Below are positions 1-21,528 of a DNA stretch of 25,421 bases, piece by piece. The notes beneath the pieces were generated by a model. That model was not told the origin of the DNA. It saw nothing but the letters and a program-made list of their open reading frames with translations, and ran no database searches. Numbering within the stretch: position 1 is the first letter of the stretch; each line of letters starts with the position of its first letter. Where the stretch lies: assembly GCA_030059675.1 (NCBI GenBank), contig JANVYQ010000015.1, forward strand, positions 1 to 25,421. The letters are read 5' to 3'. Made by a program: the position numbers and the translations under genes. The DNA comes from Candidatus Pelearchaeum maunauluense (GTDB taxonomy: Archaea > Thermoproteota > Nitrososphaeria_A > Caldarchaeales > Caldarchaeaceae).

Positions 1-19
1 GGGGAGTACGGCCGCAAGG

Positions 20-63
<44 letters not shown>

Positions 64-229
64 CGTTGCGGCTTAATTGGAGTCAACGCCGGAAACCTTA
101 CCGGGGGCGACAGCAGGATGAAGGCCAGATTGAAGGTCTTGCCGGACGAGCTGAGAGGAGGTGCATGGCCGTCGCCAGTGCGTGCCGTGAGGTGTCCTGT
201 TAATTCAGGCAAACCGGGGTGTTCCCTCG

Positions 230-968
230 ATGGTTGCTGAAGGGCTAGATACGTGGGTATATTGGATGGCTGGAATATGGGCCGCTGATAAAGGGACTTT
301 GGCGAAGGGTGTCATGAGTATAAGAAGCAAAGACCATGAAGTAATTCAACGTTGCCAACATATCTTTACAGCTTACTTAGGTCTGGCAGAAAACAAGATA
401 AGACTTCGCACAACAAAAGGCTATAGTGCCGTAGTCAGCAGTTTCAAGATAGATAGACTTCAGATGGAGGGGTTTTCCCCAGGCCTAAGGCTCTTCCAGG
501 AGCTTATGAGGGCTCCGATGAGCTCATGAGGAGCCCCGAGGCTGATGAATCCCATGACCTACGTATGCCCATGAAAGACTACGCAGGTCAGAACCCTCAA
601 CAGAGATATACGTTGTTTCTTCCGATATTAGAAGAGTTATTGAACAGATAGTCGCTGAAAGGACGAAGCTGAGGAATGCTAAAGCTCAAGCATACCTGGC
701 TGGTTTATTCGATGGAGATGGTTCGGTAGACCCACCAAGAAGCTTACTATACTATTGTTATGGAAAGCACCAACAGCAAGAAATATCTGAGGACCGTAAA
801 CTTATAGAGGTACTTGGATTCAAAACTTCATGCGGCCCATCAGTTAGAGCATTAAAATTACGCGTTCTTAAACCACGTAACTTCGCTCCCCTCATACTTC
901 CTTGGATAGTTATTCCACGTAAGATTATAGGCCTTCCGCAACTAATTGAGGGCTACCCCCGGGTCGAA
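230..968 (+). pseudogene. Intron-encoded two-motif LAGLIDADG homing endonuclease, interrupted by a 166-bp insertion
   Basis: Motif 1 YWMAGIWAADKG is in the 230 frame. Motif 2 AYLAGLFDGDGSV (from 690) is in a different frame. Deleting 431-596 fuses them in frame (..TTKGYSA|STEIYVVSSDIRR..). SD-like GGGGTG at 216-221. Confidence 0.92.
431..596 (+). mobile_element. Non-autonomous IS607-like miniature element, copy 1, with a putative tnpB 3' end/omega-RNA remnant
   Basis: CC core at 429-430 and 595-596. Shares CAGTTTCAAGATAGATAG (439-456), CTTCAGATGG (458-467) and the terminal CAGAAC-CC with copy 2. Excision restores the endonuclease frame. Family assignment is inferred. Confidence 0.88.
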
Positions 969-1490
969 CGGACGAGACCCGCGCCCCCAGTTGCCACAAG
1001 GCCGTTAGGCGCTGGGCACTCTGGGGGGACTGCCCCGGAAACGGGGAGGAAGGAGCGGGCCACGGCAGGTCAGTATGCCCCGAATCCCCCGGGCCGCACG
1101 CGACGTTCAATGGTGGGGACAGTGGGTTGCCACCCCGAAAGGGGGAGCTAATCCCTAAACCCCACCTCAGTTGGAATCGAGGGTTGCAACTCGCCCTCGT
1201 GAACGCGGAATCCCTAGTAACCGCCCGTTACCACCGGGCGGTGAATACGTCCCCGCTCCTTGCACACACTGCCCGTCGCTGCACCCGAGCTGGGGTTGGA
1301 CGAGGACCCGTCGTTGTTGGCGGGTTCGAGTCCGACCCCGGTGAGGGGGCAGAAGTCGTAACAAGGTGGCCGCACGGGAACGTGTGGCCGGATCACCTCC
1401 TACCGCCAATCCGTACTCGCTGATAGGTGCCTGGGGAGCTGCGTTGGGTTGGGCTTGTGGGTGCGGATAGGGTGTTTGGGCCCCGTGCTT

Positions 1491-2306
1491 TTACATATCT
1501 TGATGTTTGAAGAATGTGAGCGCAGCTACTAGTGTGGTTGCTGTCCATGCTATGAGTGAGGAGGTCAGTAGTGTGGGGAGTATTGCGCCTATGTTTTTGG
1601 CTATGTATGCGCTTGTTGGGCCTAGGACGAGTAGTGAGGGGTCTAGTGCGTGCACCATTAGTAGGCGGGCGCTCTCGACTGGGTTTATTGCGAGTAGTGT
1701 GAATATCTGCTCCCATTTGAGCTGCGCTCCTATTGCGGCGCCCATTAGTATGAGGTCGTAGATTACGAGCAGAAATAGCCAGGTCATTAGTATTATTCCC
1801 AGGGCTTCGAACCTGCTTCTGGAGAGGGTGGATATGAGCAGGCCTAGGCCTGTGAGCGTAGCCGCTAACAGTATGCAGGTGGCCATTATCTTGAGGTAGA
1901 TTATGAGGTCGCCTGACGATAGTATGGCCCATAGATACCATGCGGCGGCTCCGTATCCCAGTGCTGTTGCCAGCGCGATGGAGACGGTTATTCCGATGTA
2001 TTTGCTGAGTAGCACTTCAGCCTTTGAGAGGGGCTGTGATAAAATGACCTCAAGCGTCCCACGTTCGCGTTCTCCTATTATCGAGAGCCCGGCCAGCGAC
2101 ATGGCCATTAGCGGGACTAGGTAGAGCGTCATGTTTATGAGCGCGGCCGAAACTCGGCCGAATGCCCTAAATCCTAGATATCCTAGACCAAGCGAGCTGA
2201 AGTAGGATAGTGAGAGGCCCAGAATAGCGTAGATGACTGCATAGAGGATGAGCCACCTATTTCTTAGCGCGTCAAAAAGCTCTTTCTTTATGAGGGGCCA
2301 GAGCAC
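1491..2306 (-). CDS. nosY: NosY, ABC transporter permease for N2O reductase maturation
   Basis: Multi-TM ABC-2 permease with ERERGTLEVILSQPLS motif; last gene after nosD-nosF. Confidence 0.9.
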   Translation of the reverse strand: MLWPLIKKELFDALRNRWLILYAVIYAILGLSLSYFSSLGLGYLGFRAFGRVSAALINMTLYLVPLMAMSLAGLSIIGERERGTLEVILSQPLSKAEVLLSKYIGITVSIALATALGYGAAAWYLWAILSSGDLIIYLKIMATCILLAATLTGLGLLISTLSRSRFEALGIILMTWLFLLVIYDLILMGAAIGAQLKWEQIFTLLAINPVESARLLMVHALDPSLLVLGPTSAYIAKNIGAILPTLLTSSLIAWTATTLVAALTFFKHQDM

Positions 2307-9840: not shown

Positions 9841-10187
9841 ACATTCTTCAGGGCTACTAGTATAAGCCATACACTAGCCATACTCATCGTTATTGTTTCT
9901 TGAATTGCCACACCTTGCCAAGGCCATCTCACAAACCAGATGAGCGCTGAAGCTATGCCGAATGCAAGCGCTAGGGCGCCTAGCCTAGGAGAGCCGAGAG
10001 GCCATGAGACATAGCTGTATATGAAGAGGGTAATAGGCGTGGCGATGAATAGAGTAATAGACAATGTTCTATGTATCTCTCCGAAGTCTTCGGAGAAGAA
10101 TCCGCCAAGCGCCAGGTTTATTCCTACAATTGTTAGGGGGATGAGCCACGCACTATACTTCCAAGACCTATGAACAGCCATTATGCC
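9837..10187 (-). pseudogene. DUF998-family membrane protein, C-terminal part
   Basis: GIMAVHRSWKY..LALGGFFSEDFGEIH..GVAIQE; continues in frame from the inverted middle part once reconstructed. Confidence 0.85.
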
Positions 10188-10358
10188 GCAACGGTGGCTT
10201 ATGTCTTCATAGCAGTCTCAAAATCGTTAGCCCCCTGGTTTGACTTTAGGAATAACGCATTAAGCGACTTGGGCGGCTCGGTATATCACGGCTCCCTCAC
10301 ATGGATATTCAACACAGGACTCATGCTCTCAGGTGCTTTAGTTATAGTCTTCGCGATA
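10188..10358 (+). pseudogene. DUF998-family protein, middle part, inverted relative to the rest of the gene
   Basis: ATVAYVFIAVSKSLAPWFDFRNNALSDLG..IFNTGLMLSGALVIVFAI, a typical DUF998 N-terminal motif. Confidence 0.85.
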
Positions 10359-10360
10359 GG

Positions 10361-10625
10361 GTTCTGGTCTACATCGAGATACGTGGACCTTGGCCGTCAC
10401 CAGGCCTTGGCCCCCTCTCGGGCTCGGCATCGCCCTCCAGCCCTGTCGGGTCGAACCCGCCCCACACGTCTTCGCTCAGGCCGTTTCCAGCCCGAGGTCA
10501 TCCATGTGGGGAAAGCCCCCCATCTGAAGGTTTACATCATCCACAGGCCGCTAAGCGAGCCAGACCCAATGTACATAAAAGACTTTTGTCTATTTAAGCC
10601 TATCTATCTTGAAACTGTTAGTAAC
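10361..10625 (-). mobile_element. Non-autonomous IS607-like miniature element, copy 2 (265 bp)
   Basis: GG cores at 10359-10360 and 10626-10627. An 18-nt block identical to copy 1 at 10600-10617, CTTCAGATGG at 10520-10529, terminal CAGAAC. TATA-like CTTAAATA at 10591-10598 on the minus strand. Confidence 0.88.
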
Positions 10626-10658
10626 GGCGAGGATGCCGATTATCTGAGGCGCTTTCAA
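10626..10658 (-). pseudogene. DUF998-family protein, first 11 codons (MKAPQIIGILA)
   Basis: The TTG start overlaps the methyltransferase TGA and joins in frame to the inverted middle part across the shared GCCG. Confidence 0.8.
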
Positions 10659-11527
10659 GGCTGTTCCTTCTGCGCCACAACTAGCGTGTTTCCACCTAAT
10701 AACTTGATTCCAGGCATTCTTCCAAGCAGTTTATCTAACATGCTCAATAAACGAGCCGTGGAGAGAATGATTCTATTCTTAGTGTTTTGCTGTACAACCG
10801 TTGGTATTAGCCCAGCTAGGAGAAGGGCGCTTCTCTGGCTAATTATACGGAATCCCACGCGCCTAAGTAGGCTTCGTATCTCCTTATGCGTGAAGACGCG
10901 CATATTCAGTACCTCCCTAGTTGCTGGGAGCCTCCACCTTATCAGGCCACCATCAGGCGACTTGACAAGCTTCAACATCTGCTCACTCGTGGTAACGTAT
11001 CCTATCCTGTTTCCTATTAGGCTATCAACCAGCATCCACATAGTATCTAAACTCCATTTAACATCATACCCCAATACTAGCAGGCCGCCTGGCTTCAATA
11101 TCCTATGAGCCTCCATGAGCATTCTGCCTGGGTCTACGCTGTCATGGCATATCAGTTCCCCAACCGCTATTACCATATCAGCTGAGAGGTCTCGTATGGG
11201 CACGTTGTTGGCGTCGGAGCATACTAGGCTCACCCGCTCTTCATTACCATTATTACGGACTATCCTGAGCGAGTTGTATGAGAAGTCAGTCGCCACCAGC
11301 TTCGCGTCATCCTTACCATCCAGAAGCTCCACAAACGGGTCCCAGCCAGAGCCCAGCTCCACTATCACGCCGTTATGCGGCGCGGCCCCGCATACAACGC
11401 TCAACTCAAGCTCATACAGCGACAAGTCATATGGATTCTCGCGATAAATCTTGTCTTGTTCAGCCCAAGTGGCTGATTCTGATATTTTTTCATATACCTC
11501 ACGCGTGGAGGACGCTTTCATTATCAC
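10655..11527 (-). CDS. Class I SAM-dependent methyltransferase
   Basis: IVELGSG motif I, ATDFS, CSDANNVP, HRILKPGG. Confidence 0.88.
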   Translation of the reverse strand: MIMKASSTREVYEKISESATWAEQDKIYRENPYDLSLYELELSVVCGAAPHNGVIVELGSGWDPFVELLDGKDDAKLVATDFSYNSLRIVRNNGNEERVSLVCSDANNVPIRDLSADMVIAVGELICHDSVDPGRMLMEAHRILKPGGLLVLGYDVKWSLDTMWMLVDSLIGNRIGYVTTSEQMLKLVKSPDGGLIRWRLPATREVLNMRVFTHKEIRSLLRRVGFRIISQRSALLLAGLIPTVVQQNTKNRIILSTARLLSMLDKLLGRMPGIKLLGGNTLVVAQKEQP

Positions 11528-21425: not shown

Positions 21426-21528
21426 CGCCGGGGGTGGGATTCGAACCCACGCGGCCCGCGGGGGCCGCAGGCTTTCTTTCGATTATGTGGGCTCAAGGCC
21501 TGCGCGTTATCCGCTCCGCCACCCCGGC
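21426..21528 (-). tRNA. tRNA-Ser(UGA) with an 18-nt intron at canonical position 37/38 (21474-21491); CCA not encoded
   Basis: Acceptor stem GCCGGGG/CCCCGGC, anticodon arm CAGGC-CTTGAG[intron]A-GCCTG, long variable arm, T-arm GTGGGTTCGAATCCCAC, discriminator G. Confidence 0.95.

What the first reader, a model, noticed from the sequence alone, without database searches (positions are those of the whole stretch)
213..968. Triple nesting: IS607-like mini-element inside a homing endonuclease inside a 16S rRNA intron
Seen: a 166-bp insert (431-596) with CC on both sides lies between the two LAGLIDADG motifs, and exact removal restores one frame (GYSA|STEIY). A related copy lies 10 kb away. Known: BHB introns are excised by the tRNA splicing endonuclease using only their terminal structure. 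Inference: the intron is a safe harbour, so the insert is harmless to the ribosome but disables the intron's own homing enzyme. An RNA-guided-type parasite has knocked out a protein-guided one. Precise excision by a trans-acting serine transposase could switch the endonuclease back on.
Basis: partly seen in the sequence, partly recalled or inferred. Interest (0 to 1): 0.9.

Follow-up and report, generated by a model that had tools for sequence, protein, structure and literature searches.

The report
Mini-transposon splits rRNA-intron homing endonuclease
A 166-base gene-less offshoot of an IS607-type transposon has landed inside the homing-endonuclease gene of an intron in an archaeon's 16S rRNA gene, giving three mobile elements nested in one another; each layer is of a known kind and only the combination is unusual.

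Summary
The window starts inside an archaeal 16S rRNA gene that carries a 756-nt intron (213-968). A same-genus genome has the intronless junction GGCAA|CGGACGAG.

The intron holds a two-motif LAGLIDADG reading frame cut at codon 67 by a 166-bp insert (431-596). Six uninterrupted homologues run straight across that point, and all six pass Pfam LAGLIDADG_3.

The insert is a repeat, with 11 places in this genome. It consists of 27 nt of left end plus the last 139 nt (tnpB 3' end and right end) of an element. Full-length relatives of that element in other archaea carry a MerR-HTH/serine-recombinase tnpA and a tnpB between the same borders, YGCC|GTAG...CAGAACCC|. So it is an IS607-family miniature element.

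This assembly (94% complete) has no tnpA and no cognate tnpB. The proposed "switch back on" is therefore unsupported here. Splicing, read support and an empty allele could not be tested.

Each layer is known and the nesting appears unreported. Interest is moderate.

The parts
1..212 (+). 16S rRNA exon (5'-truncated by the contig start; Rfam model position 830 onward)
   Evidence: Rfam RF01959, 586.6 bits. Matches in 8 family genomes end at 212.
213..968 (+). 756-nt archaeal rRNA intron. The borders can shift by up to 2 nt because of the AA repeat.
   Evidence: Intronless junction GGCAA|CGGACGAG in G001 and G003. Same-site intron with a homologous ORF in G026. A terminal stem pairs 216-237 with 938-959.
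230..430 (+). Homing endonuclease gene, N-terminal 67 codons, with the first LAGLIDADG-type motif (WMAGIWAADKG)
   Evidence: Translation. 61% identical to residues 5-65 of the uninterrupted G026 homologue.
431..596 (+). IS607-family miniature element: 164 bp plus one copy of the CC core dinucleotide at 595-596. It lies in the sense orientation of the rRNA.
   Evidence: 11 places in the genome. Exact 166-nt gap in the homologue alignment.
431..457 (+). Left end of the element (27 nt, GTAGTCAGCAGTTTCAAG...)
   Evidence: Matches the left ends of full-length elements L017 (241-270), L032 and L036.
458..596 (+). Remnant of the tnpB 3' end plus the right end (guide-RNA/omegaRNA-type module). It has a 43-nt internal deletion relative to the 207/208-bp copies and the full-length elements.
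   Evidence: 80-86% identical to the region from the tnpB 3' end to the right end in relatives. 4 covarying pairs in the consensus structure.
230..529 (+). 99-codon chimeric ORF: 67 endonuclease codons fused in frame to 32 element-encoded codons (the old TnpB tail frame)
   Evidence: ORF list. The TnpB tail in L017 reads ...LQMEGLSPSPKLFKELMRAW.
597..968 (+). Homing endonuclease gene, C-terminal part, with the second motif (YLAGLFDGDGS). There is no stop before the intron ends, and the frame runs on into exon 2 to about 1135.
   Evidence: Translations. 21 database relatives, best E 7.7e-23. Homologues also read into exon 2.
969..1401 (+). 16S rRNA exon 2, to the 3' end of the gene
   Evidence: Rfam alignment.
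10359..10625 (-). Second miniature element of a diverged subfamily (267 bp) with the same border logic, cgcc|GTTACT...CAGAACCC
   Evidence: 97% twin at C13:34517-34762.

Best explanation
An archaeal 16S rRNA gene carries a protein-coding intron that its close relatives lack. The intron sits at a site where related archaea carry homologous introns.

The intron's LAGLIDADG homing-endonuclease gene was hit by a 166-bp non-autonomous derivative of an IS607-family transposon. That derivative keeps only 27 nt of the left end and the last 139 nt (tnpB tail plus right end, the region that encodes the guide RNA in full elements).

Inferred: a serine-recombinase TnpA supplied in trans inserted it by recombination at a CC core dinucleotide within a YGCC target. 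This left CC at both junctions. The insertion shifts the frame after codon 67, inside the first LAGLIDADG domain, so the endonuclease is inactivated.

Also inferred: the insert lies about 220 nt from either splice border and leaves the predicted terminal stem unchanged, so the intron should still be removed by the two-subunit splicing endonuclease and RtcB ligase that the genome encodes. The ribosome would be unaffected.

In this assembly the element family has neither its transposase nor its nuclease. The copies are probably stranded.
For: Shown:
- Intron borders against intronless relatives.
- The insert is a repeat with fixed ends at 11 places.
- The window's two halves align to residues 5-65 and 68-124 of an uninterrupted same-site homologue.
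- Five full-length database homologues are also gap-free across the site.
- 6 of 6 homologues exceed the Pfam LAGLIDADG_3 cut-off.
- Full-length relatives L032 and L036 read YGCC|GTAG..., then MerR HTH (38.2 bits), Resolvase (79.6 and 60 bits), tnpB, then ...CAGAACCC|.
- L017 is a tnpB-only form with the same ends.
- Of the 5 near-full tnpB copies preceding the 23-nt right-end motif with at least 2.5 kb of upstream sequence, 4 have a near-full tnpA. The fifth has a tnpA remnant.
- The predicted terminal intron stem is the same with and without the insert.
- Two tRNA-intron-endonuclease paralogues and RtcB are present.

From the literature (passages read, PMC10690162): IS607 TnpA needs the same core dinucleotide beside the left end and at the right end. 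It excises precisely, and the TnpB TAM equals the transposase target.
Against: - No tnpA (PF00239, or the L032 TnpA as query) and no cognate tnpB were found in the 94.4%-complete, 21-contig assembly. Who moved the element is therefore unknown.
- The window's own halves do not pass Pfam on their own. The C-half scores 18.4 against a cut-off of 22.5, and the N-half has no hit at E<=0.01.
- PDB sequence matches are at motif level only, E about 0.1.
- A canonical 3-4-3 BHB is not met at the borders: central helix 3 of 4, outer 1 of 3, inner 2 of 3.
- Both tnpA copies in G031 are split between the HTH and the catalytic domain.
- Copies differ by 2-7%, so the family is not freshly active.
- There is no read-level support, and the contig starts about 210 nt upstream.
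Confidence: 0.82

Rival explanations
1. The insert derives from an IS200/IS605-type element moved by a Y1 (HUH) transposase, that is, a PATE. It would have inserted 3' of a short target (GCC) without duplication, and the CC at the right end would simply be part of the element.
For: Some full-length relatives are tnpB-only (L017). A subterminal hairpin with compensatory changes lies near the right end. PATEs that carry guide-RNA modules are described for IS605 (PMC10055086, passages read).
Against: No Y1_Tnp in this genome. Inside the same borders the relatives carry a MerR-HTH/resolvase TnpA, in 4 of 5 informative full-length copies from different archaeal lineages. The same dinucleotide beside the left end and at the right end is the IS607 signature.
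Confidence: 0.06
2. The 166 nt are removed at the RNA level, as an intron within the intron or an archaeal 'IStron'. The endonuclease message would then be restored without DNA excision.
For: Removal of exactly 166 nt restores the frame. IS607 elements with self-splicing introns exist in bacteria (PMC10690162, abstract and passages). The host has a broad-specificity two-subunit splicing endonuclease.
Against: 624 cut-site pairs around the element borders were scanned. None with a 4-bp central helix removes a length that restores the frame, and the best candidate (9 of 10 pairs) removes 179 nt. Such motifs are common by chance, with 496 in 195-990 at the same stringency. The downstream flank that a BHB would need differs between copies. 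No Rfam intron or other family matches.
Confidence: 0.03
3. Assembly artefact: the repeat was wrongly placed in the intron by the assembler, or it is present only in a minority of the population.
For: The assembly is fragmented. Three contig ends fall inside copies of this repeat, and the 16S itself is split between C10 and C18. No sequencing run could be listed.
Against: The two flanks are consecutive codons of one gene, in the right order and orientation, joined through a complete element with both canonical borders. A mis-join would not produce that. The copy also has 2 private substitutions relative to the other four complete copies.
Confidence: 0.04

Closest known systems
Protein-coding 16S rRNA introns of Thermoproteales, Desulfurococcales and Aigarchaeota (Jay & Inskeep 2015, PMC4496867; passages read), probably their locus 1093
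   Same: A roughly 700-nt intron in the 16S gene with a LAGLIDADG-type homing endonuclease ORF. It is patchy among close relatives: absent from the same-genus genome and present at the same site in another family.
   Different: Here the endonuclease gene is interrupted by a transposon derivative. That paper has 0 occurrences of 'transpos' or 'insertion sequence'. The E. coli numbering of the site was not computed here. I assign it from the sequence context by recall.
IS607-family insertion sequences (serine-recombinase TnpA plus TnpB), as characterised for the Clostridium botulinum IStron (PMC10690162; passages read)
   Same: The same core dinucleotide beside the left end and at the right end. 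The target motif includes that dinucleotide. Relatives carry a MerR-HTH plus resolvase TnpA and a TnpB. The right end overlaps the tnpB tail, where the guide RNA is encoded.
   Different: The core dinucleotide is CC (target YGCC) rather than GG (TGGG). The element here has no genes. There is no group I intron. The host is archaeal. No activity was tested.
PATE / MITE-like gene-less derivatives of tnpB elements that keep a guide-RNA module (Meers et al., PMC10055086; passages read)
   Same: Short left end plus right end with the guide-RNA region, dependent on TnpA and TnpB supplied in trans.
   Different: Those described there are IS605-type (Y1 transposase) in a bacterium. This one is IS607-type in an archaeon, and in this assembly no partner proteins were found.
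Mobile introns that home into other mobile introns' ORFs (archaeal group II introns in Methanosarcina; recalled, not looked up here)
   Same: One selfish element sits inside another's coding region, so that the host gene is spared.
   Different: Different element classes. Here the inner element is a DNA transposon derivative with no splicing of its own.

Membership tests
Archaeal (BHB-type) rRNA intron | Extra sequence in the rRNA gene, absent from intronless relatives, with a clean exon-exon junction | tested here: met
   G001 and G003 read GGCAA|CGGACGAG. 8 family genomes match only up to window 212.
Archaeal (BHB-type) rRNA intron | Canonical bulge(3)-helix(4)-bulge(3) motif at the splice borders | tested here: inconclusive
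   The best register at the true borders has 3 of 4 central pairs, 1 of 3 outer and 2 of 3 inner. The constrained fold is 12.6 kcal/mol worse than the free fold. Only a relaxed motif plus a long terminal stem is present.
Archaeal (BHB-type) rRNA intron | Host encodes the splicing endonuclease and RNA ligase | tested here: met
   Two PF01974 loci (98.5 and 65.3 bits) and one RtcB (575.9 bits).
Archaeal (BHB-type) rRNA intron | The intron is actually spliced from the pre-rRNA | not testable with these tools
   No sequencing run was listed.
LAGLIDADG homing endonuclease (two-motif, monomeric type) | Two LAGLIDADG motifs about 100 residues apart in one chain | tested here: met
   WMAGIWAADKG in the N-half and YLAGLFDGDGS in the C-half. 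They fall at alignment columns about 12-22 and 104-113.
LAGLIDADG homing endonuclease (two-motif, monomeric type) | Passes the curated family profile | tested here: inconclusive
   The window's C-half scores 18.4 bits against a cut-off of 22.5, and the N-half has no hit. 6 of 6 uninterrupted homologues pass: 32.2, 25.8, 46.2, 43.2, 25.7 and 29.2 bits.
LAGLIDADG homing endonuclease (two-motif, monomeric type) | Cleaves the intronless allele | not testable with these tools
   Needs a biochemical assay.
IS607 family (non-autonomous derivative) | Full-length members encode a serine recombinase with an N-terminal MerR-type HTH | tested here: met
   Met in relatives only: L036 MerR 38.2 bits and Resolvase 60 bits, L032 Resolvase 79.6 bits. 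4 of 5 informative full-length copies in named archaeal MAGs have tnpA. Not found in the window's own genome.
IS607 family (non-autonomous derivative) | Full-length members encode TnpB whose 3' end overlaps the right end | tested here: met
   L017, L032 and L036 TnpB, PF07282 at 44-49 bits. Element nt 28-166 align to the tnpB tail plus right end.
IS607 family (non-autonomous derivative) | Identical core dinucleotide abutting the left end and ending the right end; no longer duplication | tested here: met
   CC abuts the left end in 8 of 9 copies and ends the right end in 9 of 9. The same holds in L017, L032, L036 and the second subfamily.
IS607 family (non-autonomous derivative) | Mobilised (excised and integrated) by the serine TnpA | not testable with these tools
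   Needs an excision assay.
TnpB guide RNA (omegaRNA) module | Conserved structured RNA at the right end, supported by covariation | tested here: inconclusive
   30 predicted pairs, 4 with compensatory changes. However, much of the region is also tnpB coding sequence. The single-sequence fold has z = -1.33, and no Rfam family matches. The 166-bp form lacks 43 nt of the module.

The most novel reading that the evidence does not exclude
The mini-element is not just debris. It sits in sense orientation inside an intron that is transcribed with the rRNA, and by analogy with other archaeal rRNA introns that intron may persist as a stable circle. The element would therefore deliver its guide-RNA module at very high level, with the downstream endonuclease sequence (TCAACAGAG...) as guide and the upstream TGCC as TAM.

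With a cognate TnpB supplied in trans, by a plasmid, a virus or an unassembled copy, this RNA would direct cleavage of insert-free copies of the same intron. The insert-bearing allele would then be copied in. An RNA-guided homing system would be riding on, and replacing, a protein-guided one at the same locus.
Probability: 0.06. Interest if true: 0.75.

Novelty: new member of a known kind. Interest (0 to 1): 0.38.

Why it matters
This is a clean natural example of three layers of selfish DNA and of conflict between them. A transposon derivative has silenced the enzyme that lets an intron spread, and the essential rRNA is presumably spared because the whole intron is spliced out.

It supports the idea that spliced introns are tolerated landing sites for transposons in compact archaeal genomes. 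It also gives a dated "death" event for a homing endonuclease.

In addition it defines an archaeal IS607 lineage with a CC core dinucleotide (target YGCC). Its 23-nt right-end motif recurs in MAGs labelled as very different thermophilic archaea. That is useful for anyone mining thermostable TnpB/guide-RNA pairs.

None of this changes current understanding of any of the three element types.

Tried and rejected
- A word-indexed protein search with the C-half found nothing. The exhaustive HMMER search then found 21 relatives.
- PDB sequence searches gave only motif-level LAGLIDADG hits for the C-half (E 0.11-0.77). For the G026 homologue they gave spurious kinase hits.
- Rfam at a permissive threshold over 400-640 gave only chance-level hits, E 0.48-1.7.
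- The single-sequence fold of the element is not better than shuffles (z -1.33).
- A simple BHB scanner is non-discriminating, with 496 hits in 195-990. It gave no frame-restoring motif at the element borders. The nested-intron idea was dropped.
- A metagenome scan for close HEG relatives gave one 44%-identical locus, L044, and no same-species empty allele.
- The look-up of sequencing runs listed no run, and no RNA holder was listed.
- The viral contig scan for the right-end motif found 0.
- Literature searches found no paper describing a transposon or MITE inside an archaeal rRNA-intron endonuclease gene. Only the held open-access library was searched, and supplements were closed.

Full report
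**What is there**

The window is the start of contig C18 of a 1.79-Mb, 21-contig, 94.4%-complete archaeal assembly. Rfam's archaeal SSU model aligns window 1-1401 to model positions 830-1478, with a single 756-nt insertion after ...CCUGUUAA. The 5' part of the same 16S lies at the end of contig C10. No second 16S was found.

To fix the borders I searched window 100-330 in 18 genomes of the same family, G000 included. 10 matched. In 8 of them the match stops exactly at query position 113, which is window 212. The same-genus genome G001 and the family genome G003 continue directly with exon 2...TTCAGGCAA|CGGACGAGACCC. There is a 2-nt ambiguity because AA precedes both borders.

G+C drops from about 0.6-0.7 in the exons to about 0.4-0.5 inside the intron.

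**The intron's gene**

From the ATG at 230 the frame reads 67 codons ending ...TTKGYSA at 430. From 597 it reads STEIYVVSS...YLAGLFDGDGS... with no stop before the intron ends.

A 619-bp contig of G026 (same order, different family) carries the same 16S site with an intron. That intron has an uninterrupted 126-codon ORF. The window's N-half aligns to its residues 5-65 at 61% identity. The C-half aligns to residues 68-124 at 65%. The DNA alignment shows one gap of 166 nt in the relative at the insert.

An exhaustive HMMER search with the C-half found 21 representatives at E<=1e-3, and 6 at E<=1e-10. The five long ones start their match at residues 58-68, leaving room for an N-half of about 57-67 residues. 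In a joint alignment all five, plus the G026 protein, are gap-free across the insertion point: GYSE-GTDLY, GYSD-TEETY, GFSP-TSEVY, GYSK-VIEVY, GYGT-SNEAY and GYGR-STEVY, against the window's GYSA|STEIY.

All six pass Pfam LAGLIDADG_3. The window's own halves do not: the C-half scores 18.4 against 22.5, and the N-half has no hit. This is as expected for half-proteins of a divergent family. A metagenome contig (L044) shows a further 16S intron with an intact 214-codon homologue.

In these homologues, as in the window, the ORF runs through the 3' splice border into exon 2. The missing in-intron stop is therefore a family trait and not decay.

The insertion lies inside the first LAGLIDADG domain. 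The motifs fall at about alignment columns 12-22 and 104-113, and the break is at column 68. It shifts the frame, since 166 = 3x55+1, so the enzyme is inactivated. Apart from that break neither half has a stop or frameshift.

**The insert**

431-596 recurs at 11 places in the genome, itself included:
- five complete copies of 164-166 bp, 92.8-97.6% identical pairwise;
- two copies of 207/208 bp that keep 41-42 extra internal bases;
- three partial copies at contig ends;
- one 5'-truncated copy.

8 of 9 readable left flanks end in GCC. The ninth has GCC followed by a 4-nt GTAG duplication. 9 of 9 readable right ends are ...CAGAACCC.

When each copy is removed in silico, only the C18 copy restores a long frame, 264 codons. 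The others sit at gene ends or between genes.

The "related copy 10 kb away" is a 267-bp element of a diverged subfamily at 10359-10625 on the minus strand. Its borders are cgcc|GTTACT...CAGAACCC, and it has a 97% twin on C13.

**What family**

In 41 related genomes, G000 included, 8 have matches. Outside G000 most matches cover element positions 28-166 and not the first 27 nt.

In G039 (locus L017) those positions are the last codons of a 418-codon tnpB plus the sequence up to ...CAGAACCC. The element's first 30 nt match a left end 170 nt upstream of that tnpB, preceded by CGCC.

In G031 two loci (L032, L036) have the full layout:
- YGCC|GTAG(C/G)...CAGTTTCAGAAT...;
- a MerR-type HTH (38.2 bits);
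- a Resolvase catalytic domain (79.6 and 60 bits);
- tnpB (PF07282, 44 bits);
- ...CTCAGAACCC|.

In both G031 copies the HTH and the catalytic domain are in different frames.

A 23-nt right-end motif taken from the alignment occurs in 36 stretches of the species-representative genome collection. These come from MAGs labelled Caldarchaeales/Nitrososphaerales, Sulfolobales, Thermofilaceae, Ignisphaera, Bathyarchaeia, Methanomethylicota, Methanodesulfokora, Hadesarchaea, Archaeoglobaceae and Jordarchaeia. It does not occur in the viral collection.

18 of those stretches have at least 2.5 kb upstream. 5 of the 18 have a near-full tnpB, and 4 of those 5 also have a near-full serine tnpA on the same strand. 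The fifth has a tnpA remnant. The other 13 of the 18 are truncated or gene-less.

This fits the published behaviour of IS607 TnpA (PMC10690162, passages read): the same core dinucleotide beside the left end and at the right end, precise excision, and a TAM equal to the target. I therefore file the insert as a miniature IS607-family element with core dinucleotide CC and target about YGCC.

It is made of 27 nt of left end fused to the tnpB-tail/right-end module. In the 166-bp form that module has lost a further 43 nt. The right-end module has a consensus structure with 4 compensatory pairs, mostly in the terminal hairpin GA(C/G)CUA(C/U)G...C(G/A)(C/U)AG(G/C)UC. Most of the region is also coding in full elements, and no Rfam family matches. 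"Guide-RNA module" is therefore an inference from position and homology.

**What is missing**

The window's genome has no Resolvase-domain gene and no Y1 transposase. It has no hit to the relatives' TnpA better than E 0.07. It also has no cognate TnpB, only the tails inside the mini-elements and two fragments of a distant tnpB on C13. The controls for these family searches rang in the expected reference genomes. With 94% completeness and contig breaks inside repeats, absence is not proven.

**Splicing**

The genome encodes two tRNA-intron-endonuclease paralogues and RtcB. The predicted fold brings the intron ends together in a long stem (216-237 with 938-959). That stem is identical whether 431-596 is present or not.

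A textbook 3-4-3 BHB cannot be drawn. The best register at the true borders has 3 of 4 central pairs (CCG/CGG), 1 of 3 outer and 2 of 3 inner. In G026's intron the fourth central pair would form (U instead of A), provided its exon 2 is the same, which the short contig does not show. That the rRNA matures normally is thus an inference. It rests on this being the only 16S copy found.

**Mechanism and rivals**

Most likely, a serine TnpA acting in trans integrated the mini-element at a TGCC in the endonuclease gene. That killed the endonuclease, while the intron goes on being spliced.

I rated three rivals low:
- A Y1-type PATE is disfavoured by the gene content of the relatives and the matched dinucleotide.
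- RNA-level removal found no support.
- Mis-assembly is unlikely, because a complete element with both canonical borders joins consecutive codons and carries 2 private substitutions. No reads could be examined.

It has no enzyme to run it in this assembly.

**Novelty**

16S introns with homing endonucleases at this kind of site are catalogued (PMC4496867, passages read). Gene-less tnpB-element derivatives that keep guide-RNA modules are described for IS605 (PMC10055086, passages read).

My searches found no report of such an element inside an archaeal rRNA-intron endonuclease gene. Only the held open-access library was searched, and supplements were closed.

Noticed in passing
L058-L093 (genome contigs): A 23-nt right-end motif of this IS607 lineage (AAAGACTACRYAGSTCAGAACCC) occurs exactly in 36 stretches. 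They come from MAGs labelled as very different thermophilic archaea: Caldarchaeales/Nitrososphaerales, Sulfolobales, Thermofilaceae, Ignisphaera, Bathyarchaeia, Methanomethylicota, Methanodesulfokora, Hadesarchaea, Archaeoglobaceae and Jordarchaeia. This suggests wide and fairly recent horizontal spread. There were 0 hits in viral contigs.
   Followed up: partly
window 10359-10625 (-): A second, 267-bp mini-element of a diverged subfamily lies inside the long + strand frame 10170-11108. That frame begins like a membrane protein, so the gene may be truncated by the element. A 97% twin lies at C13:34517-34762.
   Followed up: partly
window 230-529; C13:1-42: In the intron copy and in the C13 contig-end copy the element follows a GCC (Ala) codon in frame. 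The host ORF therefore reads on into the old TnpB-tail frame (...A|VVSSF(K/E)IDRLQMEG). With two cases this may be chance.
   Followed up: no
window 597-1135; P0008; L044 624-1268: The homing-endonuclease ORFs of this family have no stop inside the intron and read through the 3' splice border into 16S exon 2. Termination must therefore depend on the RNA form that is translated. In a circularised 213-968 RNA the window's frame would meet TAG at 246-248 (and my reading).
   Followed up: no
window 1402-2306: No 23S rRNA follows the 16S. The next feature is a 271-codon minus-strand ORF that looks like a membrane protein, and Rfam finds no LSU in the 25-kb window. The rRNA genes seem unlinked.
   Followed up: no
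window 21426-21528 (-): Rfam finds a tRNA whose 71 model positions span 103 nt. ARAGORN finds no tRNA in the window. It is probably an intron-containing tRNA.
   Followed up: no
L032 1328-1932; L036 1366-1945 (-): Both tnpA copies in G031 have the MerR HTH and the resolvase domain in different frames, with the shift at about the same place. Either both are decayed or the shift has a function.
   Followed up: no
G009:C4:1672-2418: One family genome has its 16S match split at query position about 83 (window about 182), with about 630 nt between the parts. This suggests an intron at a different 16S site in that relative.
   Followed up: no
G000 C13:4520-6306: Two fragments of a distant tnpB lie in opposite orientation. 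They are the only TnpB-like coding remains in the assembly outside the mini-elements.
   Followed up: partly
G000 C10 end / C18 start: The single 16S gene is split between two contigs, with roughly 45 nt of the gene missing between them and no overlap.
   Followed up: partly
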